A DNA stretch of 48,435 bases from Gemmatimonadales bacterium (GTDB taxonomy: Bacteria > Gemmatimonadota > Gemmatimonadetes > Gemmatimonadales > JACORV01): assembly GCA_017881505.1 (NCBI GenBank), contig JADGQW010000001.1:1-48435 (forward strand), in the 5' to 3' direction. How positions within the stretch are numbered: position 1 is the first letter of the stretch; each line of letters opens with the position of its first letter. Below the pieces are notes generated by a model. It ran no database searches. It saw only the letters and a list, made by a program, of their open reading frames with translations, and was not told where the DNA came from. Positions 14,996-46,235 of this stretch are shown here, piece after piece. The position numbers were made by a program, and so were the translations under genes.

Positions 14996-14999
14996 GTGG

Positions 15000-16724
15000 T
15001 CAGCCTTCCGCCGTTTCCTTGACGACTTCCTCGAGCGTGGTCACGCCCTTCTTGATCTTCACGATGCCGTCCATCCGCAGGGTGAGCATGCCGTCCTTGA
15101 CGGCCTGCTGCTGCAGCTCGTTGGTGGAGGCGCCGCGGAGGATCATGCGGCGAAGCTCCTGGGAGAAGGCCATCACCTCGTAGAGGCCCGCGCGGCCCTT
15201 GTAGCCCGACCCGGCGCAGGTCTCGCACCCCTTGCCCTTGTAGAAGGCGACCCCCTCCCACTCCTTCTCCGTGGTGCCGATCGCCTTGAGCTCGTCCTTG
15301 GAGTACTTCACCTCGGCCTTGCAGTCCTTGCAGATGCGCCGCACCAGCCGCTGCGCCACGATCAGGTTCACCGCCGACGACACGTTGAAGGGCTCGATGC
15401 CCATGTCGATCATGCGGGTGATCGTGGACGGTGCGTCGTTGGTGTGCAGCGTCGAGAGCACCAGGTGGCCGGTGAGCGCGGCCTTGATCGCGATGCTGCC
15501 CGTCTCGATGTCGCGGATCTCGCCCACCATGATGATGTTCGGATCCTGGCGCAGGAACGCCTTCAGCGCCGCCGCGAACGTCATCCCGATCTCGTTGCGC
15601 ACCGCGACCTGGTTGATGCCCATCAGGTTGTACTCGACCGGGTCCTCGGCCGTCATGATGTTGACTTCGATCGTATTGACCCGGGACAGCGCCGAGTACA
15701 GCGTCGTCGTCTTCCCCGATCCCGTCGGCCCCGTCACCAGCACCATCCCGTACGGGTTCAGGATCGCCTTCATCAGGTCCGCTTCGGCCTTGGGCTCGAA
15801 CCCGAACTTCGACAGGTCGAGCGTCAGGTTCCCCTTGTCCAGAATCCGCATCACGATCTTCTCGCCGAACAGCACGGGGAGGGTCGAGACGCGGAAGTCG
15901 ATCACCCGCTTGCCCATCTTGAGCCGGATGCGGCCGTCCTGCGGCACCCGCCGCTCGGCGATGTTCAGCGCCGCCAGGATCTTGATGCGGGAGGTGAGGG
16001 CCGCCTTGAGCTTGATCGGCGGCTTCATCACCTCGGAGAGCGCCCCGTCGATGCGGTAGCGCACCCGGATCTCGTGCTCGAACGGCTCGACGTGGATGTC
16101 GGAGGCACCCCGCTTCACCGCGTCCGTGAGGATGGCGTTGATGAGCTTCACCACGGGGGCGTCGTCCGCCATCGCGGCGCCGGCCTGCTCCGCCTCCGCC
16201 TCCTCCTGGACGAGCTCCAGCTCTTCGGACTCCGCGTCCTCCCCCATCTCCTTGAGGAGGGTGTCGAGCTGCGCGTCCACCTGCTCGTAGTACTTCTCGA
16301 TCGCCATCCGCAGGGTGTACTCGCCCGCGATCACCGGGAAGATGTCGAACCGGGTGACGAACTTGAGGTCGTCGATGACGCCGAGGTTGGTCGGATCGGC
16401 CATCGCGACCGTCAGCGTCCGCCCTTCCTTCTTGAGCGGCAGGACGAGGTGCTTGAGCGCGATATCCGCGGGGACCATCTTGATGATCTTCGGGTCCACT
16501 TCGAAGCGCGACAGGTCCACCGCCGGCATCCGGAACTGCCGGGCCAGCATCTTGGTGATCTCGGTCTCCTGTATGAAACCGAGCTTGACCAGGTTGTAGC
16601 CTATCCGGGTACCGTTGGCCCTCTGCTCCTGAAGCGCCTTCTCGAGCTGATCCTTGGTGATCAGCCCTTCCTTGATGAGCAGATCGCCGAGCCGGTCGCC
16701 GGCTGCGGGCGCTGGTGCCGACAT
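15000..16724 (-). CDS. pilB: Type IV pilus assembly ATPase PilB (GspE family)
   Basis: 574 aa. N-terminal T2SSE_N-like domain (LGDLLIKEGLITKDQLEKAL), Walker A GPTGSGKTT, TGHLVLSTLHTN, and a tetracysteine motif CKDC...CETC. Confidence 0.93.
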   Translation of the reverse strand: MSAPAPAAGDRLGDLLIKEGLITKDQLEKALQEQRANGTRIGYNLVKLGFIQETEITKMLARQFRMPAVDLSRFEVDPKIIKMVPADIALKHLVLPLKKEGRTLTVAMADPTNLGVIDDLKFVTRFDIFPVIAGEYTLRMAIEKYYEQVDAQLDTLLKEMGEDAESEELELVQEEAEAEQAGAAMADDAPVVKLINAILTDAVKRGASDIHVEPFEHEIRVRYRIDGALSEVMKPPIKLKAALTSRIKILAALNIAERRVPQDGRIRLKMGKRVIDFRVSTLPVLFGEKIVMRILDKGNLTLDLSKFGFEPKAEADLMKAILNPYGMVLVTGPTGSGKTTTLYSALSRVNTIEVNIMTAEDPVEYNLMGINQVAVRNEIGMTFAAALKAFLRQDPNIIMVGEIRDIETGSIAIKAALTGHLVLSTLHTNDAPSTITRMIDMGIEPFNVSSAVNLIVAQRLVRRICKDCKAEVKYSKDELKAIGTTEKEWEGVAFYKGKGCETCAGSGYKGRAGLYEVMAFSQELRRMILRGASTNELQQQAVKDGMLTLRMDGIVKIKKGVTTLEEVVKETAEG

Positions 16725-16778: not shown

Positions 16779-16806
16779 ATACTACGGCCGGTACCCCCCC
16801 TGTCAA
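16779..16806 (-). promoter_or_regulatory. Sigma-70-type promoter for pilBTC
   Basis: Minus strand reads TTGACA-N16-TAGTAT. The consensus -35 overlaps the comEA stop codon. It sits in a locally AT-richer island about 55 nt upstream of the pilB ATG. A GTAACT-N7-AGTTAC inverted repeat (16755-16773) lies in the predicted 5' UTR. Confidence 0.5.
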
Positions 16807-17549
16807 GGCGCGCGGAGGAAGGGCCGGAGGCGATCCACGAGGCGCTTTCCGATGCCCGGGACGCGGTCGAGCTCCTCGACCCCGCGAAAGGGGCCGCGCG
16901 CGCTCCGGTCCGCCACGATCCGCCCCGCGAGCGCCGGCCCGACCCCCGGGAGGCAGTCCAGTTCCAGCGCGGTCGCGCTGTTGAGGGGCACCGGGAGTGC
17001 TCCGCAGGAGCCGGCCGGCCTCGCCGGCGGGCGGCCGGGCGTGCCGCCGCCGCCCGGTCCCCCGGTGGTGGCTAGGGGCCGCGCCACCCCGGAGAAGGTC
17101 GCCGACCGCTCGAGACCCGCTCTCAGCCCGGGCCCGACCCCCGGCACGCGCCCCAACCCCTCCAGGCTCCCGAAGGGCCCGTGTGCGTCCCGCTCGTCCA
17201 CGATGCGGCGCGCGAGCTTCGGCCCGACCCTCGGCAGACGCGCGAGCTCGTCCGCGGCGGCCTGGTCCACGTCCACCTTCTCCCCGGGGAGGAGAGGACG
17301 CGAGAGCACCTCGGCGCGGCGGGAACGGGACGCCTGGCGGGCGGGATCGGACCCGCGCAGCTCCGGGGCGAGGACCGAGGCGCCGGGTGGACGGGTGGGC
17401 GCGCGCGCCACGCGCACCACCCCGCCGGCGGCGGCGACGAGGGCGAGGAGCAGGACGGCACGGCGTTCATCGCGGGCAGCCACGGACCACACGGTAAAGC
17501 CGGGCGGCGCTACCGTGGTGGCCGAACGCCGCGGTGTGGAGCCTCTCAA
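16803..17549 (-). CDS. comEA: ComEA-like DNA-binding protein with two helix-hairpin-helix modules
   Basis: Two copies of the ComEA HhH signature: VDVDQAAADELARLPRVGPKLARRIVDERDAHGPFGSLEGLGRVPGVGPGL and LNSATALELDCLPGVGPALAGRIVADRSARGPFRGVEELDRVPGIGKRL. N-terminal TM anchor AVLLLALVAAAGG. The track start is a TTG inside a repeat motif; the true start is probably GTG near 17492 or 17483. Confidence 0.75.
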   Translation of the reverse strand: MRGSTPRRSATTVAPPGFTVWSVAARDERRAVLLLALVAAAGGVVRVARAPTRPPGASVLAPELRGSDPARQASRSRRAEVLSRPLLPGEKVDVDQAAADELARLPRVGPKLARRIVDERDAHGPFGSLEGLGRVPGVGPGLRAGLERSATFSGVARPLATTGGPGGGGTPGRPPARPAGSCGALPVPLNSATALELDCLPGVGPALAGRIVADRSARGPFRGVEELDRVPGIGKRLVDRLRPFLRAP

Positions 17550-17578
17550 CGCCGCGGGGGGGAGCCTGTCAACGCCGC
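17538..17578 (-). repeat. Tandem 18-nt direct repeat (1 mismatch, 23-nt period) at the comEA 5' end
   Basis: Plus strand reads GGAGCCTCTCAACGCCGC (17538-17555) and GGAGCCTGTCAACGCCGC (17561-17578). Minus strand reads GCGGCGTTGA(C/G)AGGCTCC twice. Confidence 0.6.
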
Positions 17579-17591
17579 CGGATGGAGCGGA

Positions 17592-18488
17592 TCAGCGCAC
17601 GAGGGCGAGCACGACCTTCCCGACGTTGGCGAGGGAGGTCGCCGAGAGCTTGTCGGGGGTGTCGGCGGTGGTGTGCCAGTAGGTGTAGTCGAAGTCGATC
17701 ACGTCGGCGGTGTGGATCCCGGCGCCGAGGAGGGGGATGTGGTCGTCGGTCAGGGCGATCCCCTGCACCGGCTTGAAGACGTGGCCGAGGCCGATGTCCT
17801 CGGCGGTCTGCCACACCCGCTGCACGACCTCGGGGGCGCGCTCGAGCGAGTAGCCCTCCTGGGGGAACGCCTGGTCCTTGTCGCCCACCATGTCGAGGAG
17901 GACGGCGTAGAGAGGCCGGTACCCGGTGGGGAGGTGCGCCGCGAAGTAGCGCGAGCCGAGGAGATTGTCGGGCGCGTCGCCCTCGAACGTCCCGTAGTCC
18001 TCGCCGTCGACGAAGAGGAGGTCCACACCCAGGGCAGGGGGCGTGCGCTTCAGCTGATCGGCCACCCCGAGGAGGACGGCGACGCCCGAGGCACCGTCGT
18101 CCGCGCCGGGGACGGGCAGCGTCCGCTTGGCGGGGTCCGGGTCCTGGTCGGCGTGCGGCTTGGAGTCCCAGTGCGCCAGGAAGAGGACCCGGTCCCGCTC
18201 TCCGGGCCGGAAGCGCGCGATGAAGTTCCGGAGGGGGAGGGTGTCGCCCGACGCGGTGACGTGCGTGAAGGACTGGACCTCGACGCTGTCGGCCCGCTGG
18301 CGCAACTGCGCGAGGAGCCAGTCGCCGACGGCCCGGTGCGGCGCCGTGCCGGGGATGCGGGGGCCCGCGGCGACCTGGTACTCGACCCAGCGGAGCGCCT
18401 GGGGGCCGTCGAAGGGCGGCGCCGCCTGGCTGCTCCCCCGGCACGCGACGGCGAGGGCGAGGAACGCGAGGGCCACGGAGCGCATCAT
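17592..18488 (-). CDS. Lipoprotein, M28-fold metalloenzyme; glutaminyl-peptide cyclotransferase-like (Bacteroidetes PgQC type)
   Basis: 298 aa from ATG 18488 (ATGA overlap with the sprA stop). Lipobox LALAVAC. Motifs FLAHWDSKPHADQDPDP, PGADDGASGVAVLLGVA, LLFVDGEDYG and DFDYTYWHTTADT match M28/QC metal-ligand blocks. QC versus aminopeptidase cannot be decided by eye. Confidence 0.6.
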   Translation of the reverse strand: MMRSVALAFLALAVACRGSSQAAPPFDGPQALRWVEYQVAAGPRIPGTAPHRAVGDWLLAQLRQRADSVEVQSFTHVTASGDTLPLRNFIARFRPGERDRVLFLAHWDSKPHADQDPDPAKRTLPVPGADDGASGVAVLLGVADQLKRTPPALGVDLLFVDGEDYGTFEGDAPDNLLGSRYFAAHLPTGYRPLYAVLLDMVGDKDQAFPQEGYSLERAPEVVQRVWQTAEDIGLGHVFKPVQGIALTDDHIPLLGAGIHTADVIDFDYTYWHTTADTPDKLSATSLANVGKVVLALVR

Positions 18489-21400
18489 CGGGATCCCCCG
18501 GCGGAGAAGTTCACCGTCACCGACGCCGTGAACACGAACTGGGAGAACTTCCGGTTCGCGTGCGCGTCCTCCGTCACAATGTAGCTGATGCCGAGGCCGG
18601 CGGACACGTTGGGCGGCATGTCGGTGTCCATGGTGAGGTTCATCTGCCGCCGGCGGGAATCCGAGATCGACACGCAGGTGCTGTCGCCCGCCCGCGCGAT
18701 GCAGCCGGTGCTGACGCTGTTCGAGTACCGCAGCGAGGTCCGCACGTCGGAGCGCAGGGGGATCAGCTCCGGCGGCACGCGGAAGGAGAAGGAGAGGTCG
18801 GCCCCGACGTCGTTGCGGTCGCTCTGGACCACGTTCCCCGACTGGTCGGACGCGGACCGCATGTCGGAATAGCTGAAGGTCGTGATCACGCGCGGCGCCC
18901 AGTTGAGGGTCAGCGAGAGGGGCCACGACCGGGTGCTCTGCGAGGTGGTGACATCCCCCGTCGCCGACGAACCGCCGGGCAGGCCGGCGAGCAGGGCCGA
19001 CTGGACCGTCTGCGTCGCCCGCTCGCGGTACGAGGCGCTCGCGCTCACGCTGGTGAGGACCGCCCGCACCAGCGGCTGGCGGGGCGACCAGACCCAGCGC
19101 CCGGTGACGCTGGGCCAGTCGATCTCCGTCTGGCGCATCTGCGACTGCCCGTCGGCGCGGCGCGCCCAGGAGGTGCTTTCCTGGCGCAGGTAGTCCGAGG
19201 CCAGGGAGAGCCCCAGCGGCAGCCGCAGGCCCCCTGCCAGCCGGACCTCATGATCCTGCCGCGCCGCATCCGCGGGCTGGCCGCCATACGCGCGGAAGGC
19301 GTCCACCCCGCCGAGCGCGAGCTGATAGCCGAGGCCGGGCGTCACGCCGCGCTGGCTGAACTGGGAGCGCAGGCCCGAGCGGGTCGAGACGTCCACCGGA
19401 TTGAGCCGGTCGAAGAGCTTCGTCAGCAGCGACGAGTCCCTGGACAGCCCGCGCGCGAGGGCCGTGAGGTCGAGGGCAAGGCCGAGGTCCGTCGTCCGCT
19501 GGTTCTGGAAGGCCAGCGGGATGGTGAAGGCGCCCGCCGTGTCGCCGTCGACCCGCTGGGCGGACGGGGCGGTGGCGTCGCGATTGAGGTTGAACTGCGA
19601 GGCGAGGCTCGCGCGGGGCCGGAGCCAGTTCGCGAGCGCGGGTTGCCAGGTGAGGCGGGTCGCGACCACGCGCGAGCGCTCGAAGCCGACGTTCATCCCG
19701 AGGAGGCGACGGGAGTCCTGCCGGGTCAGCACCCCGATGGTGGTCGAGTCCCCGTAGTTCCGCAGGTCCCGCACCTGCGTCCAGGTGAACCCGCCGGAGA
19801 GGGAACGGAGCGGCCGCAGGTCCACTGAGACGTCCTGCTGCAGCGCGGCCTGCACCATCGACACCGACGTGGCCAGGGTGTCGCTCGAGGTGGCGACCGG
19901 CACCCGGAAGGTCTGCTGCTCCGCCGCAGTATGGTTGTACGTCGTGCTGAAGCGCACCGAGACCGGCGTCCAGGTGAGCCGCGCGTCCTCCAGGCCGCGC
20001 GCGAACGACGATCCACTGATGAACGCCGGGAGCGCCCGCACCAGCCGCACCAGGAAACCGGGCACGTACCGGAAGCTGCGCTCGGCGGGGGTCGCGGCGT
20101 AGTCGCCGCGCAGGTTGAGGAGGCTCGAGGTCCCCTGCCCCAGCTGCGTCGTGGTCGCGCTCCGCGCCCCCGACACGCTCACCGTCAGGTTGTCCACCAG
20201 CAGGCGCTGCCACCACAGGGCGCCGCGCCGCGTGCGGCGCAGGACCAGGCTGACGTTCGTCTGGGAGCTCCTGGGGCGCCGCAGCCCGTCGATCGGCCCC
20301 GCGAGCACGTCGGTGCCGCTCAGGAAGTACGGATCCTGGGACGAGCGGTCCACGCGGACGGTGAGGGGCGCGGTGAGCCCCAGGCGCTCGAGGCCGAGCT
20401 TCTCGAGCCGCACCGTCGTCGCGACGGCGAGCTGCGTCGTGCCCAGGTAGGGCGGCTGCTCGCCGATCTGGCGGAACTGCGCGTCCCGCCGGGTCATCGA
20501 GATGTTCACGTCCGCGACGTCCGACGCGGAGACGTGGAGGCTGAGGGTCCCGGCGTAGCCCGGCGTGTTCACCGCCTGCGCCAGGCGGATGTCGTCCACC
20601 CACAGCTCGGCGCTGTCGAGCGCGGGGCCACTGTCCCGGACGAAGCCCACCGCCAGCTCGCGGACCGCCGCGAGGTTGGGCGGCGAGACGCCGGGGTTCC
20701 GCACCTGCACGAGGTAGGGGCCGTCGCACGCCACGTACGCGAGAGTGTCGGCGCCGCAGCTCCTGGCGCGCGCCACGTTGGGCGGGTCGCCGCGGAGGAA
20801 GGACGCCTCGATCTGCGCCCGCAGGTCGAGCCAGTGGCCGAAGTCCACGACCGCCTCCGGGTCCCACGTCGTCGTGCGGGCGGGCGCCCGGAAGAGGTAG
20901 AAGTTGTTCTCGTCCTGCGCGACCTTGATGTAGAACGCCAGCTGGCCGCGGTCCCACCCGGCGCCGCGGCCCCGCGCCCAGACGCGCAGCTGGCGGTAGC
21001 CGAGGAAGTTCCGCGCCCCCTCCGGGAACTGGAAGAACGACTCGGCACGCTCGCCCGGCCGGACGTCGAAGCCGATGAGGCGCAGCGAGCGCTCGTTGAT
21101 CTGCACCTGGCCGACCGAGAGATTGCCGGTCGTGCTCTCGCCCGCGTCAGTGACGCCGGGGGGCGGCACGTAGCCGAGGTCGGCCTGGTTCTCCGTGCTC
21201 ACGACGCTCGCGACCACCTCGCCGTGCGCGCTGCCGGCCGCGCCGTCGAGGCCCGGGATGGGCGTCGCCGCCCGCTTCACCCAAGGGGCGCCCACGAGCT
21301 TGACGCGCGCCAGGGCGAAGTACACCGCGTGCTCGGGGGTGCCGCCGCCCGGCACCACGAGGGTCATCCGCAACTGCTGGATCAGCCGGATGTTCGGCGC

Positions 21401-24400
21401 CCCCACCTGGATCGTGTCGCTCCGGAAGGGGATCCGGTACAGCCGCCACCGCCCGGCCGCGGCCGAGTCGGTGCCGGCGACGGTCGCGCCGTCGCGGACG
21501 TAGTAGCGGTCGTCCCCGATGGGGAAGACGTACCGGAAGTACGACTCCCCGGTCGCGGTGATGAGGGTGTCGAGGTGCCCGTCCCCGTTCAGGTCGTCGC
21601 TGTCCACCTGGCCATTGTGCCGCGTGCAGTGCTCGCCGAGGTCGCCCCAGGGATAGACCACCAGCCCCCGGCTCATCCGCGACTCGCACAGCGGGACGGC
21701 GTGTTCCATGACGCCGGTGGTCGTGTTGAGGATGCTGTCCGCGACGTCGCCGAGGATGCCGTTATCATTGACCGACGCGTTCCACGCCCCGGTGAGGGTG
21801 TCGCGCTCGGTCTGCAGCCTCCCCTCGTGGGCGCGGCGGCGGCCGCTGAAGACCGTGTCCCCCTGCGCCGTGACCGCGAGCCGGTTGGGGAGGAAGTCCA
21901 CGGCGTCCTCGTACACCGTACCGAAGTCGAACGCGAGCGTCGCGCCGGCCGCGCGCGCGGTGCGCTGGTTGTCCTCGTACACCCACAGCTCGAGGTACTC
22001 GACGCGGGAGAGGTCCACGCCCGTCGCCGACAGCGGCTGGGTGATCGAGCGCCAGCGCGGGCCGTCGGTGTGCGGTACGTACCAGCGGATCCGGCCCGTG
22101 TTCGCGTCGGGCAGTCCGCCGACCGTGTCGGTGTACATCAGGTCCCAGAGCACCGGCTCGTACGTCGTCCCCGCCCCCTGCACCACGATGGACGGGTCGA
22201 TCTCGTTGGGGCGGAACTGCACGATGCCGGTGGACGTCTGGATGAGGTTCTGCCAGGTGAACGGGACGGCGTCCTGGTCCTGGAACCCGAGAACCGGGTC
22301 GATGCCGTGGGCTTCGAGCCCCCGCGCCGAGCCGGGCCGGCTGCCGTACTCCCAGAGGTTCTCGCCGAGGGAGAGGAAGGTGCCGCCCTCCTCCTCGAAC
22401 GTCTCCACGTATGCGACGCCGAGCTGGTTCGGCGAAGGGCGGGAGGTCGCCAGCTCGGCGTCGAGGGTGACCGCCGAGGGGGCGTCGGTGCGGACGAAGG
22501 GCAGCGCCTGGACCAGCCGGGTGAGCCCGTCGGGCGCGAAGCGGAAATTGCCGGTGATCCCGCCGACGAAGTGCGACGAGGGCTCGAACCCGAGTGGCGG
22601 CCGGGTGAAGGTCGTGCGCTGGCGCTGCAGCAGGCCGAGCGCGGTCAAGCTGCCGTGTTCGCCGAAGTCGTAGCGCGTCTCGAGCCCGTAGATGGAGGTC
22701 GGCGCGATGGCGAAGGTCGGCTGCTCCTCGTACTGGACGCTGACGCTCGTCGGGCCCTGGAAGAGGGAGTCGGGCGCCGTGAAGGTGACCTGCCCGACCT
22801 CGTAGTTGATCGTGTAGTCCACGTTGCGCGTCAGCGGCCGGCCGGCCGCCGTGATGACCTCGCTCCCCTCGCGGATCTGGAAGCCCCCGAGCGAGAGCAC
22901 GGCGCGGTTGTCGCCCCCCTGCGCGTCGTAGTGGAACTGCAGCGTATAGAGGGGCGTCGGGCCCTGCGTCCGCAGGAGGTAGGTCGGCGTCCGGTACAGC
23001 GAGTCGTTGCGGAACTCCGCCGGGAGCGCGGTGCTGTCGGCGAACGGCTGGAGCTTCGGGAAGACGATATAGTAGTCCTTGATGGGCGCGCCGGAGCCGG
23101 GGTCGCGGCTCCGCGGGAACACCCGGTTGAACTGGTCGAGCGTCGTCGCGTCGGTCTGCAGTGCGAGCCCGAGCTGGGCCAGGAAGGTCGCGGCGCCGGT
23201 GGCCGGCCGCTCCGATTCGCCGACCAGGATCCGCAGCCGCGCGGTCTCCCGCACCACGTCCCCCTGCGCGCCGAGCCGGTAGAAGTTCCGCATCTCGTAG
23301 CGGAAGGTGGGGACGTCGGCGTCGCGCCGCGGCTCGTAGATGAGCCGCAGCGTATCCACCCGCCCCGCCGCCGCCTTGGCGGGGAAGGTCCCGACGGTGT
23401 CGCCGGACGCGGTCACGTAGGAGACGGCGAGGTAGTCGTCCTGGTCGAGGCGCGCGGCGAGGCCGATCCACAGGCCCGAGGCGTCCAGGAAGTAGTCCCG
23501 CCCCTCGATGAGGAGCTCCCAGGGGAACGGTCCGGCGCGCTGCGGGGAGTCGTTCCGCAACGCGACGGCGCTGATGCCGCTCAGGTTCTGCTCGGCGGTC
23601 CCCGCGGTGTTCAGGCGGCTGCGCCGGCGGTACACCCGCACCTGGGTGACCTGCCCCGACGCGGGGAGGACGGCCTGCGTCAGCCCCAGCACGTCCACGC
23701 CGGGGTACCCCGGAATGGTCCGGGGGTCCACCACGAAGAAGAAGCGCAGCGGCTCGAAGTCGCGGTCGGCCACGGCGCGGTCGAGGGGCTGGACGGTCCG
23801 ATCGCCGATGGTGAAGGTGCGGCCCCGGACGACGTTGCCCTTCTGCTGCGCGAAGATGCCGGTGAAGTCGAGCGCGCCGACCTGGCCCTGCACCTGGACG
23901 CCGAAGTTGTTCGAGGGGATGCCCGCGGTGATGAAGCGCGACGGGGGCACGGCGAAGGTCACGTTCCCGAGGTCCACCCGCCGCAGGACCTCGTCCTCCA
24001 GGCCCTGGTAGTAGACCTGGATGTTGTTGGACGCCTCGAACTCGCGCTTGCTGTCGTAGTCCACGTTGAGGTGCACCCGCTGGCCGACGACGCCTCCCGA
24101 GCGCACATTGAACTGCGGGTCGAAGCTCGGCGGGTTGAGCTGGTTGCGGCAGCCGGAGCCGAGGTCGTTGGCCTCCGCCGGTGTGCAGCGCAGGTTCTTC
24201 ATCTGGTCGAACCGGAGCTCGAAGCGCGCCGACATCAGCAGGTCGAGGTCGGCGATGCGGCTGATGACCTGGGGCTGCGGCGGCGCCTCGGAAGGCATGG
24301 GCGAGGGGCCCTGCGGCGGCGCGGCGGGCGCGGCGGCCGGGACGGACGCCAGGCTCCGGTCGCCGCCCAGGAGCAACCCGCGCCACATCGCCGCGTCGCG

Positions 24401-24634
24401 CCGGGCGAGTCGCGCGCGCAGATCCGCTGCCCAGTCCCGCGCCACGGTCGCCGCGTCGGGACGCCGCGCCGCGAGGCGCCCCCCGGGGGCGATGTCGGCG
24501 GGGAGCACCAGGCGCAGCGGGTCCCGCCGCAGCCGCAGGCGGCGCACGCCCGCGAGCGTGTCGGGTTGCTGCGCGGCGAGGCGGGGAGCGGAGAGGAGGG
24601 CGAGGAGCGCGAGCGCGAGGAGCGATCGCGCCAC
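18485..24634 (-). CDS. sprA: SprA/Sov-family T9SS outer-membrane translocon
   Basis: 2049 aa with signal peptide ...SAPRLAA|QQ. The N-terminal block HLNVDYDSKREFEASNNIQVYYQGLEDEVLRRVDLGNVTFAVP...FGVQVQGQVGALDFTGIFAQQKGN matches the conserved SprA_N signature as I recall it. Giant beta-rich protein. GTG start. Confidence 0.85.
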   Translation of the reverse strand: MARSLLALALLALLSAPRLAAQQPDTLAGVRRLRLRRDPLRLVLPADIAPGGRLAARRPDAATVARDWAADLRARLARRDAAMWRGLLLGGDRSLASVPAAAPAAPPQGPSPMPSEAPPQPQVISRIADLDLLMSARFELRFDQMKNLRCTPAEANDLGSGCRNQLNPPSFDPQFNVRSGGVVGQRVHLNVDYDSKREFEASNNIQVYYQGLEDEVLRRVDLGNVTFAVPPSRFITAGIPSNNFGVQVQGQVGALDFTGIFAQQKGNVVRGRTFTIGDRTVQPLDRAVADRDFEPLRFFFVVDPRTIPGYPGVDVLGLTQAVLPASGQVTQVRVYRRRSRLNTAGTAEQNLSGISAVALRNDSPQRAGPFPWELLIEGRDYFLDASGLWIGLAARLDQDDYLAVSYVTASGDTVGTFPAKAAAGRVDTLRLIYEPRRDADVPTFRYEMRNFYRLGAQGDVVRETARLRILVGESERPATGAATFLAQLGLALQTDATTLDQFNRVFPRSRDPGSGAPIKDYYIVFPKLQPFADSTALPAEFRNDSLYRTPTYLLRTQGPTPLYTLQFHYDAQGGDNRAVLSLGGFQIREGSEVITAAGRPLTRNVDYTINYEVGQVTFTAPDSLFQGPTSVSVQYEEQPTFAIAPTSIYGLETRYDFGEHGSLTALGLLQRQRTTFTRPPLGFEPSSHFVGGITGNFRFAPDGLTRLVQALPFVRTDAPSAVTLDAELATSRPSPNQLGVAYVETFEEEGGTFLSLGENLWEYGSRPGSARGLEAHGIDPVLGFQDQDAVPFTWQNLIQTSTGIVQFRPNEIDPSIVVQGAGTTYEPVLWDLMYTDTVGGLPDANTGRIRWYVPHTDGPRWRSITQPLSATGVDLSRVEYLELWVYEDNQRTARAAGATLAFDFGTVYEDAVDFLPNRLAVTAQGDTVFSGRRRAHEGRLQTERDTLTGAWNASVNDNGILGDVADSILNTTTGVMEHAVPLCESRMSRGLVVYPWGDLGEHCTRHNGQVDSDDLNGDGHLDTLITATGESYFRYVFPIGDDRYYVRDGATVAGTDSAAAGRWRLYRIPFRSDTIQVGAPNIRLIQQLRMTLVVPGGGTPEHAVYFALARVKLVGAPWVKRAATPIPGLDGAAGSAHGEVVASVVSTENQADLGYVPPPGVTDAGESTTGNLSVGQVQINERSLRLIGFDVRPGERAESFFQFPEGARNFLGYRQLRVWARGRGAGWDRGQLAFYIKVAQDENNFYLFRAPARTTTWDPEAVVDFGHWLDLRAQIEASFLRGDPPNVARARSCGADTLAYVACDGPYLVQVRNPGVSPPNLAAVRELAVGFVRDSGPALDSAELWVDDIRLAQAVNTPGYAGTLSLHVSASDVADVNISMTRRDAQFRQIGEQPPYLGTTQLAVATTVRLEKLGLERLGLTAPLTVRVDRSSQDPYFLSGTDVLAGPIDGLRRPRSSQTNVSLVLRRTRRGALWWQRLLVDNLTVSVSGARSATTTQLGQGTSSLLNLRGDYAATPAERSFRYVPGFLVRLVRALPAFISGSSFARGLEDARLTWTPVSVRFSTTYNHTAAEQQTFRVPVATSSDTLATSVSMVQAALQQDVSVDLRPLRSLSGGFTWTQVRDLRNYGDSTTIGVLTRQDSRRLLGMNVGFERSRVVATRLTWQPALANWLRPRASLASQFNLNRDATAPSAQRVDGDTAGAFTIPLAFQNQRTTDLGLALDLTALARGLSRDSSLLTKLFDRLNPVDVSTRSGLRSQFSQRGVTPGLGYQLALGGVDAFRAYGGQPADAARQDHEVRLAGGLRLPLGLSLASDYLRQESTSWARRADGQSQMRQTEIDWPSVTGRWVWSPRQPLVRAVLTSVSASASYRERATQTVQSALLAGLPGGSSATGDVTTSQSTRSWPLSLTLNWAPRVITTFSYSDMRSASDQSGNVVQSDRNDVGADLSFSFRVPPELIPLRSDVRTSLRYSNSVSTGCIARAGDSTCVSISDSRRRQMNLTMDTDMPPNVSAGLGISYIVTEDAHANRKFSQFVFTASVTVNFSAGGSR

Positions 24635-24679: not shown

Positions 24680-24708
24680 AATATACGAGCGCCCCAGAGG
24701 CCTCTCAA
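24680..24708 (-). promoter_or_regulatory. Sigma-70-type promoter for sprA
   Basis: Minus strand reads TTGAGA-N17-TATATT, about 45 nt upstream of the sprA GTG. Confidence 0.5.
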
Positions 24709-24734
24709 CCCCGAGGGAACGGCCGGAACCGTCC

Positions 24735-27480: not shown

Positions 27481-30400
27481 CTAGATCGTGTACCGGGCCC
27501 CGAACTGCATCTGCCACCGCGAGGCGTTGATGTTCACCGCGCGGTACGTCGGCAGTGACAGCGCGTACTTCCCGCGGCCGCTGGCGGCATCGTAGCCCGT
27601 CAGGCGGAGCAGGTTGGCGTTCTCGAACCCGGAGGTCGAGTTCACCGTGCCCCAGTTGTTGTCGAGCATCTGCCCGAGGAGGCGCGGGACGTTGAAGACG
27701 TCGAGCGAGATCTCGAGCGACTGCCCGTTCATCGTCGAGATCGTCTTCGAGACGCGGGCGTCGAGGAACGTCTGCCACGGGTTCCGGCAGCTGTTCCGCG
27801 ACATGATCCGGCCGCGCTGCGCGTTGAGGCAGGGGTCGGAGTTGATGTACGCGTTCAGCTTGTTCCAGTCCGACGGGGTCGCGAGGATGATGTCGGAGCT
27901 GTACGTCGGCACGTACACCAGGTCGTTCGCCGTGATGCCGTCGGCGTTCGCGTCGTTCGAGACCACGTAGCCGTACGGCGTGCCCGACTGGACCGTCAGC
28001 CGGAGGCCGGCGCTGATCTTGAAGGGCAGGTTGAAGGAGCCGTTCGCCACGAAGCGGTGCGGCCGGTCGAAGGCCGAGCGCCGCAGGTAGCGGTTGTTGA
28101 GCGAGCCGTCGAGCGTCGTGAACTGGTAGTTCGACAGCGCGACGCTCGAGCCCAGGGTGATGTAGTCCATCGCGCGGGAGTAGGTGTAGCCGAGGCTGAA
28201 CTCCATCGCGTTGCTGAACCGCTTCTGCAGCTGCAGGGTCCCGGACCAGGCCCGGTCCCCGCTCCGGTTCGAGTGCTCCAGCACCGTCGCGAACGCCGTG
28301 CTGACCTTCGACACGGCCACGCTGCCGGTGCCCGAGATCGTTCCGTACATGATGCGGTTGCCCTCGCCCACGCTCAGCGACTGCGGGCCCCGCAGGTTCG
28401 TGTCGGTGATGTAGTAGTTGTTGATGTACCGGGTGAACAGGAAGTCCACCGTCCCGACGACGCCCCAGGGCAGCGTGTGGTCCGCGCCCAGCGCGAAGCG
28501 CAGCGTCTGCGGGAACTTGAAGTTCGGGTCGTAATACACGACGGCGGCCGTCGGCGGCGTGAGCGACGCGCTCCCCGTGCCGCGGCTGCAGGCTGCCGGC
28601 ATGTTGTTCACGTCGGTGACGAAGTTCGGCACCGTGTCGAGGGTGCTGGCGCCGAGGTTGCCGTCGCAGGTCAGCGTCGCCTGCTCGAGGCCGGTGTTGC
28701 CGTAGGCGTTCGAGACCCACACGTACGCCGGGCGGCCCGTGAAGACGCCCACGCCGCCGCGCAGCACCGTGCTGCCGTCGCCGGTGATGTCGAGGTTGAA
28801 GCCGAGGCGCGGCGACCAGAGGCCGGCCATGGACAGCTTGCTGGTGTTGATGCCACCGGGGGCGTTCGCGGAATCGAACGCCGCCGCCGTGCCGCCGTGC
28901 GCCACGAAGAAGAGCGAGTCGAGCCGCACGTTGTGCGACGGGCTCGAGGGCAGCGTCGGCTTGTCGTACCGCAGGCCGGCCGTCACCGTCAGGCGTGGGG
29001 TGGGCGTCCAGCGGTCCTGGATGTAGGCGCCGAGCTGGTTCACCTTGAACTTCGCCTCGCCGCCGTTGGGCCGGAGGAGGAGCGCGATCTGGTACTGGTA
29101 GGGCGAACCGGCCGCCAGCGAGTCCGCGTTCGCGAACCAGTACGTGCCATACGCGTTCTGCAGGAACAGGTTGTCGAAGTTGAAGAACTCGTTGTGCGTC
29201 CCCACGGTGATCAGGTGCTGCCCCAGCGGGAACGTCACGTTGTCCGTGACCTCGAGGATCTTCTGCTCGAGGAAGTTCGCCATCGAGGAGCGCTCGGCGC
29301 CCGCCGCGAGGATCGTCGTGCAGCTCGCGGGGTTCGCCAGGCCGGCGCACCGGTCCCCGTTCACGACCACTCGGGGGATGTTGTTGGGCAGGACCCGGTT
29401 GTCGCTCACCGTCGTGTAACCGACGATCAGCTCGTTGGTGAACCGGCTCAGGAAGGTCGAGGTGAGGTTCAGCCGCGTGCTGGCCGTCTTGCTGAGGAAC
29501 TGGTAGCCGCTGTTCGAGAGCTGGTAGCCGTTGTTCGCCGTGCCGGGCGCGTGCGAGAGGTTGTCCGTCGACGCGACGACCGAGTTGTGCGAGACGTCGA
29601 AGTGCGTCGAGCCGCCCAGCTCACCCGACAGCTTCACCAGGATGTTGGAGTCGGGGTTCTTCTGCGTCGGGCTCTCGGGGCCGCCGGCGCGGAAGCCGTA
29701 GGTGTTCGTCATGATGCTGTCGACGCGCTGCGCCGTGTTCCAGCGGATCCCGACGCCCACCGAGTCGGCGCCGCCCGTGGTGTCCGGCGTGATCACGCCC
29801 AGCGAGGAGAAGGGCGACGACTGCCGCGAGAGGTCCACGACGGTGAAGAAGTGGAGCTTGTCGCGGATGATCGGGCCGCCGAAGCTGAAGCCGTACTGGG
29901 CCTTCTGGGTCGTCGTGGGCTTGAAGAGGAGGCCCGTCGAGTCGGTCCAGTTGCCGATCCAGTGCTGGTCGGTGTAGTACCCGAACACCGTGCCCCCGAA
30001 CCGGTTCGTCCCGGAGCGCGTCACCACGTTCACGATGCCGCCCGTGAAGCCGCCCTGCCGCACGTCGAACGGCGCCATCAGGACCTGGAACTCCTTCACC
30101 GCCTCGACGGAGATCGGCCGCGCGTTCGCCTGCCCGCCCGGCGTGCCGCTCGAGGCCAGACCGAACAGGTCGTTGTTCACCGCGCCGTCGATCTGGATGT
30201 TGTTGAACCGGTTGTTCAGGCCGCCCACCGACGTGCCCACCACCTGCGGCACGTTCGAGATGAAGTCGGTGAAGTTCCGGCCCAGCGTCGGGAGGTTGAG
30301 GATCGCGCTGTCCGACACCGACGAGCTCGCGCCCGTCCGCGCCGCCGAGACCAGCGGGTTCTCCTCGTTCACCGTCACGTCGAGGGCGCCGAGCTCCACC

Positions 30401-30762
30401 GCCGCCTGCGGCAGCCGCAGGTCGACTTCCGCCATCTGGCCGAGGGTGAGGCGCATCGCCTCCGTCCGCGTCTGCCGATAGCCGATCGCCCGCGCCTCGA
30501 AGGTGTACCGGCCGACCGCAATATTCTCGATGTTCCACGCGCCACCGGCACGGGTGCGGCCCTGGTAGCGCTGGCCCGTCGTGACGCTGATCGCGGTCAC
30601 CACCGCGCCCTCGATCGGGTTGCCGCTGTCGTCCAGGACGCGACCGCGCGCCGATGCGCTCGTCACGCCTTGCGCGAAGGCCGCCGGCACCGCTGCACAC
30701 GCCAACACGGCGAGCACGGCGACGACGCGGATCCACGCGCTTCGCACTGAGTCACTTCGCAT
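27481..30762 (-). CDS. TonB-dependent receptor with N-terminal carboxypeptidase-regulatory-like domain (Oar-like)
   Basis: 1093 aa from ATG 30762 (GGAG upstream). Signal peptide ...AAVPAAFA|QG. CarboxypepD_reg-like RGRVLDDSGNPIEGAVVTAISVTTGQ. Plug-like segment NLPTLGRNFTDF...VQIDGAVNND and a long beta-barrel. Confidence 0.85.
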   Translation of the reverse strand: MRSDSVRSAWIRVVAVLAVLACAAVPAAFAQGVTSASARGRVLDDSGNPIEGAVVTAISVTTGQRYQGRTRAGGAWNIENIAVGRYTFEARAIGYRQTRTEAMRLTLGQMAEVDLRLPQAAVELGALDVTVNEENPLVSAARTGASSSVSDSAILNLPTLGRNFTDFISNVPQVVGTSVGGLNNRFNNIQIDGAVNNDLFGLASSGTPGGQANARPISVEAVKEFQVLMAPFDVRQGGFTGGIVNVVTRSGTNRFGGTVFGYYTDQHWIGNWTDSTGLLFKPTTTQKAQYGFSFGGPIIRDKLHFFTVVDLSRQSSPFSSLGVITPDTTGGADSVGVGIRWNTAQRVDSIMTNTYGFRAGGPESPTQKNPDSNILVKLSGELGGSTHFDVSHNSVVASTDNLSHAPGTANNGYQLSNSGYQFLSKTASTRLNLTSTFLSRFTNELIVGYTTVSDNRVLPNNIPRVVVNGDRCAGLANPASCTTILAAGAERSSMANFLEQKILEVTDNVTFPLGQHLITVGTHNEFFNFDNLFLQNAYGTYWFANADSLAAGSPYQYQIALLLRPNGGEAKFKVNQLGAYIQDRWTPTPRLTVTAGLRYDKPTLPSSPSHNVRLDSLFFVAHGGTAAAFDSANAPGGINTSKLSMAGLWSPRLGFNLDITGDGSTVLRGGVGVFTGRPAYVWVSNAYGNTGLEQATLTCDGNLGASTLDTVPNFVTDVNNMPAACSRGTGSASLTPPTAAVVYYDPNFKFPQTLRFALGADHTLPWGVVGTVDFLFTRYINNYYITDTNLRGPQSLSVGEGNRIMYGTISGTGSVAVSKVSTAFATVLEHSNRSGDRAWSGTLQLQKRFSNAMEFSLGYTYSRAMDYITLGSSVALSNYQFTTLDGSLNNRYLRRSAFDRPHRFVANGSFNLPFKISAGLRLTVQSGTPYGYVVSNDANADGITANDLVYVPTYSSDIILATPSDWNKLNAYINSDPCLNAQRGRIMSRNSCRNPWQTFLDARVSKTISTMNGQSLEISLDVFNVPRLLGQMLDNNWGTVNSTSGFENANLLRLTGYDAASGRGKYALSLPTYRAVNINASRWQMQFGARYTI

Positions 30763-45080: not shown

Positions 45081-46235
45081 CTACCAGTTGAGGGCCACGC
45101 CGAGCATGTTCACGCCGCCCAGCAGCCCGTAGTTCTTGTACGCGTAATCGAACCCGATGCCGAAGCCGCCCTTCGCGTACCGCAGCCCGCCGCCCGCCGA
45201 GAGGCGATACTGCCGCCCCTTCAACGAGCTGGTGAACCCCGCGTAGTCCGTGGACGTCGGGTCGGGCGCGGTCATGTTGTCGTCGCCGGCGAACGTGCCA
45301 CCGAGACGGCCGGCCACCGAGAAGCCCGACTGCCCCAGCGCCATGTTGTACTCCCCGGCGAAGCTGAAGCCCGGCTGGCTGTTGTTCGGCTGATTGAACT
45401 CACCGAGCAGGGTGAGCCGGCTGAGCGAGGTGGTGAACGCGTCGTAGGCCAACGCGATCCGGAACATCACCGGCAGGGACCATGCCTTCGTGGTCAGCTG
45501 CGCCTTGGCCGGCTCCTGCGGGATCTGGTCCTGCCCGGCCGGCGGCTGCCGCGTGTACGTCACGACCAGCGGCTGCCCCGAGTGGGACATGTTCGTGCCC
45601 AGGTTCGAGATCACGAACGCGGCCCGCACGGCGCGGCCGGCCAGCGTGGAGTGGAAGCTCGTCCCGAAATCCACCGCGAACGCGCTGCCGGAGACATCCC
45701 CCAAATGGTCGGACACGACCTTGGCCGTGATGCCGGCCGAGAACCGGTCCGAGAACTGCTGCGCGTACGTCCCGGCGATGGCGGTCTCGGACACGCTGTA
45801 CACCTGTCCGGCCAGCCCCTGAGGATCCTCCACCGTGTACACGGGCTGGTTACTGAACCCGAAGGTCGTGACCGACAGCCCGAACGCCCGGGAGCCGCCC
45901 CCGAAGGGGACGCCGAAGGCGCCGAAGGTGTAGTTGGTCCCGGCGATGTACTTCATGTTGCTCGCCATCGCGCCCGGACGCTCCATCAGCGCCAGGCCCG
46001 CCGGGTTGTAGTACATCGAGCCGAGATCGTTCGCGAGCGCCGCGTACGCCCCGCCCAGCGCCGCGCCACGTGCCGTGGCGGGGATGAGCAGGAACTCCGC
46101 GGCCGTCGTCCCGAAGGCGACGTTGTTCGACGGCACCGACGTGATCGTCGGGTTCGTCTGCGCTCGGCCCACCGTACTGACGGCCAGGATGGCCACCAGC
46201 ACCGCGGCGCCGATCTGCAAAGAGCCTCTCCTCAT
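45081..46235 (-). CDS. porV: PorV/PorQ-family T9SS outer-membrane beta-barrel
   Basis: 384 aa. Signal peptide ...STVGRA|QT. The family signature FLLIPATARGAALGGAYAALANDLGSMYYNPAGLA is recalled from PorV/LptO-type proteins. C-terminal aromatic residue (LNW). GGAGG RBS. Confidence 0.7.
   Translation of the reverse strand: MRRGSLQIGAAVLVAILAVSTVGRAQTNPTITSVPSNNVAFGTTAAEFLLIPATARGAALGGAYAALANDLGSMYYNPAGLALMERPGAMASNMKYIAGTNYTFGAFGVPFGGGSRAFGLSVTTFGFSNQPVYTVEDPQGLAGQVYSVSETAIAGTYAQQFSDRFSAGITAKVVSDHLGDVSGSAFAVDFGTSFHSTLAGRAVRAAFVISNLGTNMSHSGQPLVVTYTRQPPAGQDQIPQEPAKAQLTTKAWSLPVMFRIALAYDAFTTSLSRLTLLGEFNQPNNSQPGFSFAGEYNMALGQSGFSVAGRLGGTFAGDDNMTAPDPTSTDYAGFTSSLKGRQYRLSAGGGLRYAKGGFGIGFDYAYKNYGLLGGVNMLGVALNW

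What the first reader, a model, noticed from the sequence alone, without database searches (positions are those of the whole stretch)
17592..24634. SprA (T9SS translocon) is translationally coupled to a glutaminyl-cyclase-like lipoprotein
The sprA stop and the start of the M28/QC-like gene overlap (ATGA, 18485-18488). In Porphyromonas and other Bacteroidetes, a lipoprotein glutaminyl cyclase converts the N-terminal Gln of exported proteins, including T9SS cargo, to pyroglutamate. There it is not, to my knowledge, encoded as part of a sprA operon. A hard-wired sprA-QC pair in a probable non-Bacteroidetes genome suggests a functional link between translocon biogenesis or cargo and N-terminal cyclisation.
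Basis: partly seen in the sequence, partly recalled or inferred. Interest (0 to 1): 0.7.

Follow-up and report, generated by a model that had tools for sequence, protein, structure and literature searches.

The report
Conserved SprA–glutaminyl cyclase gene pair
In this Gemmatimonadales genome the gene for the giant type IX secretion pore (SprA) overlaps by four bases the gene for a lipoprotein glutaminyl cyclase, and the same gene pair recurs across several related phyla, which points to an old and previously unreported tie between the secretion pore and N-terminal pyroglutamate capping of exported proteins.

Summary
The sprA stop (TGA, 18487-18485) and the start of the next gene (ATG, 18488-18486) overlap as ATGA on the minus strand.

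The 298-aa product is a lipoprotein (Cys16). It is a PgQC-type (type II) glutaminyl cyclase, not a di-zinc aminopeptidase. Its best solved relatives are the Bacteroidales QCs (E about 1e-61), and all top 50 fold matches are QCs. It keeps Asp131-Gly132, Glu163-Asp164, Asp199 and Trp271-His272.

The linkage is not unique to this genome:
- 63 of 80 Gemmatimonadota species genomes have sprA directly upstream of the QC gene, each with an in-frame ATG or GTG overlapping the sprA stop.
- sprA-QC adjacency also occurs in Zixibacteria, Marinimicrobia, KSB1 and Glassbacteria-like contigs, where the flanking genes differ.
- 40 of about 70 assessable, diverse metagenomic QC loci show it.
- It is absent in Bacteroidales, an Ignavibacteriaceae MAG and an Armatimonadota MAG.

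QC also persists where sprA has left the locus (17 of 80). Gemmatimonadota SprA itself starts with Gln after its signal peptide (44 of 45), as do other exported proteins in these loci.

The most likely reading is a general pyroglutamate-forming enzyme that is co-expressed with the translocon. This is a new variant of known parts and moderately interesting.

The parts
24680..24708 (-). Promoter-like site (TTGAGA, 17 nt, TATATT) about 45 nt upstream of the sprA start, in the roughly 110-nt divergent spacer towards lptF/G
   Evidence: 10 of 12 consensus matches; sequence read. This is a consensus match only, not evidence of function.
18485..24634 (-). sprA: T9SS outer-membrane translocon homologue, 2049 aa. 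Its signal peptide ends ...PRLAA, followed by QQPD.
   Evidence: TIGR04189 equivalog, 578 bits against a cut-off of 200. Pfam SprA_N. N-terminus read. AXA|Q is conserved in 44 of 45 complete Gemmatimonadota SprA N-termini.
18485..18488 (-). ATGA overlap: the QC start ATG (18488-18486) overlaps the sprA stop TGA (18487-18485)
   Evidence: The same A/GTGA overlap, in frame with QC, is present in 65 of 65 sprA-bearing sequences, counting the window and L001.
18494..18499 (-). Shine-Dalgarno-like GGGGGA inside the last sprA codons, 5 nt before the QC ATG
   Evidence: Related loci carry GGGNAG-type runs at the same place. Its function is inferred.
17592..18488 (-). Type II (PgQC-like) glutaminyl cyclase lipoprotein, 298 aa. 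Lipobox is LAVAC with Cys16. Predicted zinc ligands are Asp131, Asp164 and His272. Predicted catalytic residues are Glu163 and Asp199.
   Evidence: PDB sequence search: 3tc8 at 5e-62, PgQC 6qql at 3e-61, aminopeptidases only at 5e-6. AF2 model with pLDDT 81. All top 50 Foldseek hits are QCs. Marker residues taken from PMC7948796. Conserved columns.
17493..17591 (-). 99-nt spacer between QC and the ComEA-like gene. It holds two copies of GTTGASAGGC (17564-17573 and 17541-17550); a third copy sits at the sprA promoter-like site (24700-24709).
   Evidence: 3 matches against 0.19 expected. The motif is not conserved in related loci, so its meaning is unknown.
16803..17492 (-). ComEA-like helix-hairpin-helix protein (about 229 aa). 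It is the next gene downstream and often travels with the pair.
   Evidence: Pfam HHH_3 at 2e-33 and TIGR00426. It follows QC in most Gemmatimonadota loci and in Zixibacteria and Glassbacteria-like contigs, but not in L085, L086, L171 or L172.
27481..30762 (-). TonB-dependent-type outer membrane barrel protein. It is a predicted QC substrate (signal peptide ...PAAFA, then QGVTS).
   Evidence: Pfam OMP_b-brl_4 and CarboxypepD_reg. N-terminus read. Homologues in L020, L025, L054, L066, L070, L081, L130 and L142 all show small-x-small|Q.
45081..46235 (-). PorV/PorQ-family T9SS outer membrane protein. It is a predicted QC substrate (...STVGRA, then QTNP).
   Evidence: NF033709, 138 bits against a cut-off of 90. 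N-terminus read.

Best explanation
The 298-aa gene encodes a periplasm-facing lipoprotein glutaminyl cyclase of the bacterial type II (PgQC) kind. It has a mono-zinc M28 fold and converts the N-terminal Gln of exported proteins to pyroglutamate after signal peptidase I cleavage.

The gene is transcribed with sprA from a promoter in the lptF/G-sprA spacer. Its translation starts at an ATG that overlaps the sprA stop codon, so QC is made whenever the T9SS translocon is made.

Its likely substrates are many Sec-exported envelope proteins. These include SprA itself (mature N-terminus QQPD...), the PorV-family protein and TonB-type barrels. Pyroglutamate would protect them from aminopeptidases, as shown for P. 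gingivalis.

The sprA-then-QC pair is an old unit of the FCB-group phyla. It is kept in Gemmatimonadota, Zixibacteria, Marinimicrobia and KSB1, and it is broken in Bacteroidales and Ignavibacteria.

Shown here: the gene identities, the overlap, and the conservation of the pair. Inferred: enzyme activity, co-transcription, translational coupling, the substrate range, and the ancestral status of the pair.
For: Enzyme identity:
- The closest solved relatives are PdQC, PgQC, TfQC and BtQC (E 5e-62 to 7e-54), against 5e-6 for true aminopeptidases.
- All top 50 Foldseek hits to the AF2 model are QCs, with TM 0.82-0.84 to the bacterial QCs.
- The QC markers from PMC7948796 are present: Asp131-Gly132, Glu163-Asp164, Asp199, Asp248-Asp249-His250 and Trp271-His272. 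They are invariant or nearly so across 50 diverse family members.
- The lipobox Cys is conserved.

Conservation of the pair:
- 63 of 80 Gemmatimonadota species genomes have sprA directly upstream.
- All of them have an in-frame A/GTGA overlap.
- Named or name-inferred contigs from Zixibacteria, a Glassbacteria-like lineage, Marinimicrobia and KSB1, plus two unnamed lineages, have sprA and QC 1-50 nt apart. Their flanks differ: murB, lptF/G, rimP-nusA, selAB, prmA.
- 40 of about 70 assessable loci in a deliberately diverse metagenome sample have a SprA ORF of about 2000 aa ending just before QC.

Substrates:
- SprA has small-x-small|Q in 44 of 45 Gemmatimonadota N-termini, while the residues after the Gln vary.
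- Seven further exported families in these loci show the same junction.
- P. gingivalis data show that pGlu stabilises exported proteins and that 86% of T9SS-related SPI substrates start with Gln.

Transcription:
- No terminator-like site lies between 25200 and 12400, and there is a promoter-like site upstream of sprA.
Against: - No activity, zinc stoichiometry, transcript or pGlu data exist for any of these organisms.
- The Gemmatimonadota QC lacks the Bacteroidales-conserved Trp (PgTrp193 aligns with Asn175). It also has a 7-8 residue deletion just before Trp-His, where PgPhe294 lies.
- SprA does not start with Gln in the Zixibacteria, KSB1 and L085 lineages, although they keep the pair. SprA being a substrate therefore cannot be the general reason for the linkage.
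- My site-blind signal-peptide predictor was too imprecise to give a proteome Q-value. It gave 22 of 70 proteins, and a family-weighted 2.3 of 18.
- The eight-family tally rests on manual reading of the -3/-1 rule.
- The sample covers only a few genomic neighbourhoods.
- Published experiments argue against a role for pGlu in T9SS targeting.
Confidence: 0.65

Rival explanations
1. QC is a dedicated T9SS accessory factor. It acts specifically on SprA, other T9SS components or CTD cargo, or it docks physically at the translocon, and that is why the pair is kept together.
For: - The pair survives repeated rearrangement of its flanks in at least four phyla.
- Gene order and strand are always sprA then QC, with very short gaps.
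- The literature noted a striking phylogenetic co-occurrence of T9SS and high Q-values.
- T9SS components and cargo are 86% Q-positive in P. gingivalis.
Against: - QC stays in the same slot (lptF/G <> QC-comEA-pilBTC) in 17 of 80 Gemmatimonadota loci that have no sprA there. These fall in at least three separate places on the QC tree.
- Non-T9SS barrel proteins in those sprA-less loci, including Gemmatimonas phototrophica, still begin with Gln.
- Bacteroides species lack T9SS but have QC, e.g. BtQC.
- The QC family also occurs in an Armatimonadota MAG with no sprA next to it.
- Experiments in P. gingivalis argue against pGlu controlling T9SS targeting.
Confidence: 0.2
2. The adjacency is inherited gene order with no functional meaning. 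The ATGA overlap is simply the commonest compact junction in high-GC operons.
For: - Four-base ATGA overlaps are common in bacteria (general knowledge).
- Within Gemmatimonadota the whole row lptF/G <> sprA-QC-comEA-pilBTC is syntenic, so part of the signal is shared ancestry.
- The pair has been lost repeatedly without loss of QC.
Against: - Between phyla the flanking genes differ on both sides while sprA-QC stays together.
- 40 of about 70 diverse QC loci share the arrangement. For an arbitrary gene pair, chance adjacency is of the order of one in a thousand (my estimate).
- The overlap is kept in 65 of 65 sequences, even where SprA C-terminal identity has dropped to about 35%.
Confidence: 0.1
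3. The protein is a di-zinc M28 aminopeptidase that trims exported proteins, not a cyclase.
For: - The Pfam family is Peptidase_M28.
- Databases name most homologues 'M28 family peptidase'.
- The His106-Trp-Asp108 and Asp199 positions that bind the second zinc in aminopeptidases are retained. They are also retained in genuine QCs.
Against: - E-values are about 1e-61 to proven QCs and about 1e-5 to aminopeptidases.
- NCBIfam aminopeptidase models score 28 bits against a cut-off of 298.
- Gly132 follows the zinc-binding Asp, where aminopeptidases have Asn or Asp.
- The third ligand is Asp, as in bacterial QCs.
- Trp271 sits where aminopeptidases have Tyr.
- No aminopeptidase appears in the top 50 fold matches.
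Confidence: 0.05

Closest known systems
PgQC (PG_2157) and the other Bacteroidales type II glutaminyl cyclases (TfQC, PiQC, PdQC 3tc8, BtQC 4fuu/7d1d)
   Same: - About 40-45% identity over the full length.
- Same fold.
- N-terminal lipobox.
- Asp/Asp/His zinc ligands with the catalytic Glu.
- Gly after the first Asp, and Trp before the zinc-binding His.
- Exported proteins in the same genomes begin with Gln.
   Different: - PgTrp193 is replaced (Asn175).
- A 7-8 residue segment holding PgPhe294 is missing.
- The host is Gemmatimonadota.
- The gene lies directly after sprA and overlaps it. PG_2157 instead heads an operon with an Fe-S protein and hemG, and a Muribaculaceae QC follows secG.
SprA/Sov, the T9SS outer-membrane translocon of Flavobacterium johnsoniae and P. 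gingivalis (TIGR04189)
   Same: - Equivalog-level match at 578 bits.
- Giant size (2049 aa) with a Sec signal peptide.
- A PorV-family protein and a CTD-tailed protein are encoded in the same window.
   Different: - It is shorter than the 2319-position model and matches it in three stretches.
- It carries a short C-terminal tail (...NF-SAGGSR) that houses the ribosome-binding site and start codon of QC.
- No gldK/L/M/N homologue was seen in the window.
The Bacteroidetes 'Q-rule' (Bochtler et al. 2018; Szczesniak et al. 2023)
   Same: Signal peptidase I substrates expose Gln, in a genome that encodes a membrane-anchored type II QC. T9SS components are among the Q-proteins.
   Different: The rule is described as exclusive to Bacteroidetes, with outliers such as Ignavibacterium. 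Here the pattern appears in Gemmatimonadota, and for SprA also in Marinimicrobia and two unnamed lineages. It rests on a small sample read by hand.

Membership tests
Type II (animal/PgQC-type) glutaminyl cyclase | M28-like alpha/beta fold closest to known QCs | tested here: met
   Pfam PF04389, 114 bits. AF2 model with pLDDT 81 and pTM 0.84. All top 50 Foldseek PDB hits are QCs, and the best bacterial QCs give TM 0.82-0.84.
Type II (animal/PgQC-type) glutaminyl cyclase | Zinc ligands Asp / Asp (Glu in animals) / His, plus the catalytic Glu and the Asp equivalent to HsAsp248 | tested here: met
   Asp131, Asp164, His272, Glu163 and Asp199 align with PgAsp149, PgAsp183, PgHis299, the Glu before PgAsp183 (HsGlu201) and the PgQC DMVG Asp (HsAsp248). 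All are invariant in alignments A1 and A2.
Type II (animal/PgQC-type) glutaminyl cyclase | Markers that separate QCs from di-zinc aminopeptidases: Gly (not Asn/Asp) after the first zinc-binding Asp, and Trp (not Tyr) before the zinc-binding His | tested here: met
   Gly132 and Trp271 are present. The criteria come from PMC7948796.
Type II (animal/PgQC-type) glutaminyl cyclase | Bacteroidal active-site residues PgTrp193 and PgPhe294 | tested here: not met
   PgTrp193 aligns with Asn175 (Asn or Val in relatives). The loop that carries PgPhe294 is deleted, and Tyr268 may substitute for it. These residues define the Bacteroidales subgroup, not QCs as a whole.
Type II (animal/PgQC-type) glutaminyl cyclase | N-terminal lipoprotein anchor | tested here: met
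   LAVAC with Cys16. The Cys is invariant in A1 and present in other phyla. One relative (L012) instead seems to have an SPI-type signal.
Type II (animal/PgQC-type) glutaminyl cyclase | Cyclase activity on N-terminal Gln, with a single bound zinc | not testable with these tools
   This needs an enzyme assay and metal analysis.
T9SS translocon SprA/Sov | Match to the curated equivalog model above its cut-off | tested here: met
   TIGR04189 at 4e-173, 578 bits against 200.
T9SS translocon SprA/Sov | Other T9SS parts in the same genome (PorV, CTD cargo, PorK/L/M/N) | tested here: inconclusive
   The window holds a PorV/PorQ-family protein (138 bits against 90) and a protein with a Por_Secre_tail (23.9 against 23). 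No PorK/L/M/N is in this 48-kb window, and the rest of the genome was not available.
Translationally coupled gene pair | Stop and start codons overlap on the same strand, with a ribosome-binding site inside the upstream gene | tested here: met
   ATGA at 18488-18485 and GGGGGA at 18499-18494. The overlap is conserved in 65 of 65 sequences. Actual coupling of translation was not tested.
Q-rule organism (most SPI substrates start with Gln) | Gln at +1 in the majority of predicted SPI substrates across the proteome | tested here: inconclusive
   SprA shows it in 44 of 45 N-termini. Seven further exported families show small-x-small|Q by manual reading. My automatic site-blind predictor was too imprecise, and no whole genome could be scanned.

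The most novel reading that the evidence does not exclude
sprA-QC is an ancestral two-gene module of the FCB superphylum, and glutaminyl cyclase is an unrecognised biogenesis or maintenance factor of the type IX translocon. For example, pGlu capping may be needed for the stability of SprA, its partners or waiting cargo. As a corollary, the 'Bacteroidetes-exclusive' Q-rule would actually extend to Gemmatimonadota, Marinimicrobia and other candidate phyla.
Probability: 0.3. Interest if true: 0.75.

Novelty: new variant of a known kind. Interest (0 to 1): 0.6.

Why it matters
Glutaminyl cyclase is essential in P. gingivalis and is pursued as a drug target. Why Bacteroidota cap nearly all exported proteins with pyroglutamate is still unresolved, and so is whether this relates to the type IX system they also invented. 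The one published test argued against a targeting role.

A gene pair kept together across at least four phyla, with the overlap conserved in every sprA-bearing Gemmatimonadota genome sampled, is independent evolutionary evidence that the translocon and the cyclase are needed together. It also suggests that the Q-rule is wider than the phylum it is named after.

Both ideas become directly testable. Possible tests are Q-values on complete genomes, the effect of QC depletion on SprA stability, and pGlu proteomics in cultivated Gemmatimonadota.

Tried and rejected
1. Automatic Q-rule estimate. Four home-made signal-peptide and cleavage-site heuristics picked up membrane proteins and shadow ORFs, and they misplaced sites in Ala-rich c-regions. 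The site-blind version gave Q as the commonest +1 residue per protein (22 of 70) but only 2.3 of 18 when weighted by family. I therefore rely on SprA conservation and on manually read junctions, and I mark the Q-rule claim as inconclusive.

2. The residues that bind the second zinc in aminopeptidases are retained in genuine QCs too, so I used the markers from PMC7948796 instead.

3. The GTTGASAGGC motif. It occurs three times in the window but is not conserved in related loci. I dropped it as a regulatory lead.

4. Apparent 29-116 nt gaps between sprA and QC in seven loci. These were errors in my start-codon picking. All seven have the in-frame overlapping start.

5. Supplement search of the 2018 Q-rule paper for Gemmatimonas: nothing found.

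6. Paper searches for Fimbriiglobus QC, for T9SS with Zixibacteria, and for SprA with glutaminyl: nothing relevant.

7. Context look-up of a 'Bacteroidota bacterium' QC (P0208): not on record.

8. Whether the sprA-less Gemmatimonadota carry sprA elsewhere in the genome.
Full report
**What is in the window**

The window has 66-76% G+C. Its closest relatives are Gemmatimonadales MAGs. On the minus strand a row of genes runs as follows:
- sprA, 24634-18485, 2049 aa
- a 298-aa M28-fold gene, 18488-17592
- a ComEA-like helix-hairpin-helix gene, 17492-16803
- pilB, pilT and pilC, 16724-12609

An lptF/G permease gene diverges upstream of sprA. Reading the junction gives ...GGGGGATCCCGATGATGCGC.... 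A G-rich ribosome-binding-like run lies 5 nt upstream.

A sigma-70-like site (TTGAGA, 17 nt, TATATT) sits about 45 nt before the sprA start. No terminator-like hairpin occurs anywhere between 25200 and 12400. A 99-nt spacer separates the M28-fold gene from the ComEA-like gene. The tightly joined unit is therefore sprA plus the 298-aa gene.

**Identity of the two proteins**

sprA matches the curated equivalog model for the T9SS translocon at 578 bits, against a cut-off of 200.

The 298-aa protein begins MMRSVALAFLALAVAC, a lipoprotein signal with Cys16. Its identity as a glutaminyl cyclase rests on the following.
- Against all PDB sequences, its best matches are the Bacteroidales glutaminyl cyclases: PdQC 3tc8 (5e-62), PgQC 6qql (3e-61), TfQC 6qro and BtQC 4fuu. 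Animal QCs follow at about 1e-10, and true M28 aminopeptidases only at 5e-6.
- NCBIfam aminopeptidase models score 28 bits against a cut-off of 298.
- An AlphaFold model (pLDDT 81, pTM 0.84) finds only QCs among its 50 best PDB fold matches. TM is 0.82-0.84 to the bacterial enzymes.
- The structural paper on PgQC lists what separates QCs from di-zinc aminopeptidases. The zinc ligands are Asp149, Asp183 and His299. A Gly follows the first Asp where aminopeptidases have Asn or Asp. A Trp sits before the zinc-binding His where aminopeptidases have Tyr.
- The window protein has Asp131-Gly132, Glu163-Asp164, Asp199, Asp248-Asp249-His250 and Trp271-His272 at those positions. These columns are invariant or nearly so in 14 close and 50 distant family members.

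Two Bacteroidales-specific active-site residues are not kept. PgTrp193 aligns with Asn175, and the loop holding PgPhe294 is deleted. I file the protein as a type II QC, outside the Bacteroidales subgroup. Activity and zinc count remain untested.

**Is the linkage unique? Within Gemmatimonadota**

A scan of one genome per GTDB species found 484 relatives, and the 80 best were fetched. All 80 are QC loci from Gemmatimonadota-type MAGs, although two records carry other or unassigned names.
- 63 of the 80 have sprA immediately upstream, in the order lptF/G <> sprA-QC-comEA-pilBTC.
- In every one of the 65 sprA-bearing sequences (these 63, the window, and L001, a short second assembly of this same gene pair), an ATG (56) or GTG (9) overlaps the sprA stop in frame with QC.
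- This holds even though SprA C-terminal identity falls to about 35% and QC identity to 56%.
- In most of them this start is followed at once by the lipoprotein signal.

The remaining 17 loci have QC in the same slot, about 100 nt from the divergent lptF/G gene, with sprA simply absent. On a QC tree they fall in at least three separate places, one of which includes Gemmatimonas phototrophica. The translocon gene has therefore left this locus several times while QC stayed. Whether those genomes carry sprA elsewhere could not be checked. An older survey found no T9SS outside Bacteroidetes in the complete genomes then available.

**Beyond the phylum**

An exhaustive search of 1.84 billion cluster representatives found 743 QC-family clusters at E <= 1e-30. 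Context look-ups for members named by their sources gave the results below.

| Source | Locus | Gene order |
|---|---|---|
| Zixibacteria | L082 | murB-sprA-QC-comEA |
| Glassbacteria-like contig | L084 | lptF/G <> sprA-QC-comEA-pilBTC |
| Unnamed lineage | L085 | lptF/G <> sprA-QC, then rimP-nusA-infB |
| Unnamed lineage | L086 | murB-sprA-QC-selA-selB |
| Marinimicrobia contig | L171 | sprA ends 1 nt before QC |
| KSB1 MAG | L172 | lptF/G <> sprA-QC-prmA |

The flanks change, but the pair does not.

I then scanned the metagenome collection with a 50-sequence alignment headed by a family consensus, to obtain a diverse sample. tblastn and a SprA C-terminal HMM built here agree:
- 40 loci have a SprA ORF ending -4 to about 340 nt before the start of the QC match. 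Most gaps are under 120 nt. The ORF is 2000-2500 aa where complete.
- 30 loci have no SprA ORF there.
- 10 loci are too short to assess.

Half of the 40 are not Gemmatimonadota. One low-GC clade is Marinimicrobia/Fidelibacterota and another is KSB1/Zhuqueibacterota, judged by the names of close homologues.

The pair is not found in the following:
- the Bacteroidales clade: a Muribaculaceae MAG (secG-QC) and two related metagenome loci
- an Ignavibacteriaceae MAG
- an Armatimonadota MAG
- the clade around L089

In P. gingivalis, sov is PG0809, and QC (PG_2157) heads an operon with PG_2158 and hemG.

**What does QC act on?**

In Bacteroidota most signal peptidase I substrates begin with Gln, which QC converts to pyroglutamate. 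This protects them from degradation, and T9SS-related proteins are 86% Q-positive. The evidence in these loci is as follows.
- SprA itself reads ...PRLAA|QQPD in the window.
- Of 45 complete Gemmatimonadota SprA N-termini, 44 have a canonical signal peptide followed by small-x-small|Q. The next residues vary freely (QQPD, QDAG, QAPV, QEPV, QIGG), which is the signature of selection on the Gln alone.
- The same junction occurs in the TonB-type barrel at 30762-27481 and in its homologues, including those in sprA-less loci.
- It also occurs in the PorV-family protein at 46235-45081 and in five further exported families found in the flanks.

By my estimate, a Gln preceded by a -3/-1 motif in the dozen residues after an h-region has at most about a 0.2 chance per protein, given 3.8% Gln overall. 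Eight of eight families is therefore unlikely to be chance.

This is still a small, hand-read sample from few neighbourhoods. My automatic predictors were not good enough to give a proteome value.

SprA also begins with Gln in Marinimicrobia, the Glassbacteria-like contig and two unnamed lineages. It does not in Zixibacteria, KSB1 or L085. SprA being a substrate therefore cannot by itself explain why the pair is kept.

**Interpretation**

The best-supported reading is a general periplasmic pyroglutamate-forming lipoprotein whose gene is co-transcribed with, and probably translationally coupled to, the T9SS translocon gene.

The persistence of the pair through flank rearrangements in several phyla argues for a real functional tie. 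Possible ties are co-expression, or a need of the translocon, its partners or its cargo for capping. The retention of QC without sprA, and the existence of QC in T9SS-free Bacteroides, argue against an exclusively T9SS-dedicated role. Pure synteny and an aminopeptidase function are poorly supported.

**Novelty**

Both parts are known. Type II QCs have also been solved from Planctomycetes and Acidobacteria (7d1b and 7d18). T9SS genes have been suspected in Gemmatimonadetes. The 2018 Q-rule paper remarked on the phylogenetic co-occurrence of T9SS and high Q-values, but it concluded that the experimental data argue against a role of cyclisation in T9SS targeting.

I found no paper that describes an sprA-QC operon or a Q-rule in these phyla. 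The 2023 paper calls the rule exclusive to Bacteroidetes.

I rate this a new variant of a known kind and moderately interesting. It gives independent evolutionary evidence for a translocon-cyclase link and makes that link testable.

Noticed in passing
window 41621-48435 (minus strand): A second T9SS-related row sits here. It comprises a protein with a T9SS type A sorting domain at its C-terminus (46288-48435, cut by the window end), a PorV/PorQ-family protein (45081-46235), a GWxTD-domain protein (43592-45109) and a PPC-domain lipoprotein (41621-43570). The order resembles porU-porV of Bacteroidota. The KSB1 locus L172 has a 1606-aa C25 peptidase a few genes after sprA-QC.
   Followed up: partly
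window 24700-24709, 17564-17573, 17541-17550 (minus strand): The 10-mer GTTGASAGGC occurs three times against 0.19 expected. One copy is at the -35 of the sprA promoter-like site, and two are in the QC-comEA spacer. It is not conserved in related loci; only L034 has a copy upstream of sprA.
   Followed up: yes
L020, L024, L025, L029, L042, L044, L050, L051, L054, L056, L057, L060, L062, L066, L070, L079, L081: These Gemmatimonadota genomes lack sprA at the locus, and QC sits directly opposite lptF/G. They lie in at least three places on the QC tree, and their barrel proteins still start with Gln. Whether they have lost T9SS altogether is unknown.
   Followed up: partly
window 16803-17492; L082 10924-11445; L084 10888-11403: A ComEA-like HHH_3 protein follows QC in Gemmatimonadota, and also in Zixibacteria and a Glassbacteria-like contig, where it overlaps the QC stop by 4 nt. 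In Gemmatimonadota it leads into pilB-pilT-pilC. sprA-QC-comEA may be a wider conserved triad.
   Followed up: partly
window 18485-18505 and the sprA 3' ends of L002-L081: Gemmatimonadota SprA ends with a conserved tail, ...G-x-x-(R/Q/P), after the last barrel-like strand (window: VTVNF-SAGGSR). The tail encodes the ribosome-binding site and start codon of QC. In Zixibacteria, L085 and L086, SprA ends directly on an aromatic residue (...EFSF, ...QFRF, ...EMRF).
   Followed up: partly
L087 2671-4148: In a Muribaculaceae MAG the QC gene directly follows secG. This is a different link between QC and protein export.
   Followed up: no
L012 about 2116-3006: This Gemmatimonadales QC seems to lack the lipobox Cys. 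It has instead an SPI-type signal ending ...SNSAA followed by QAPAFDG, so the cyclase itself would start with Gln.
   Followed up: no
window 3-494, 9941-11719, 12609-16724: A type IV pilus set is present: a pilin with an N-methylation motif, a PAS histidine kinase, and pilC, pilT and pilB. The window also holds four large membrane-protein ORFs at 568-7909 with almost no family matches (one is weakly DUF2142-like). The ORFs at 568-2799 and 2391-4241 are paralogues whose reading frames overlap.
   Followed up: no
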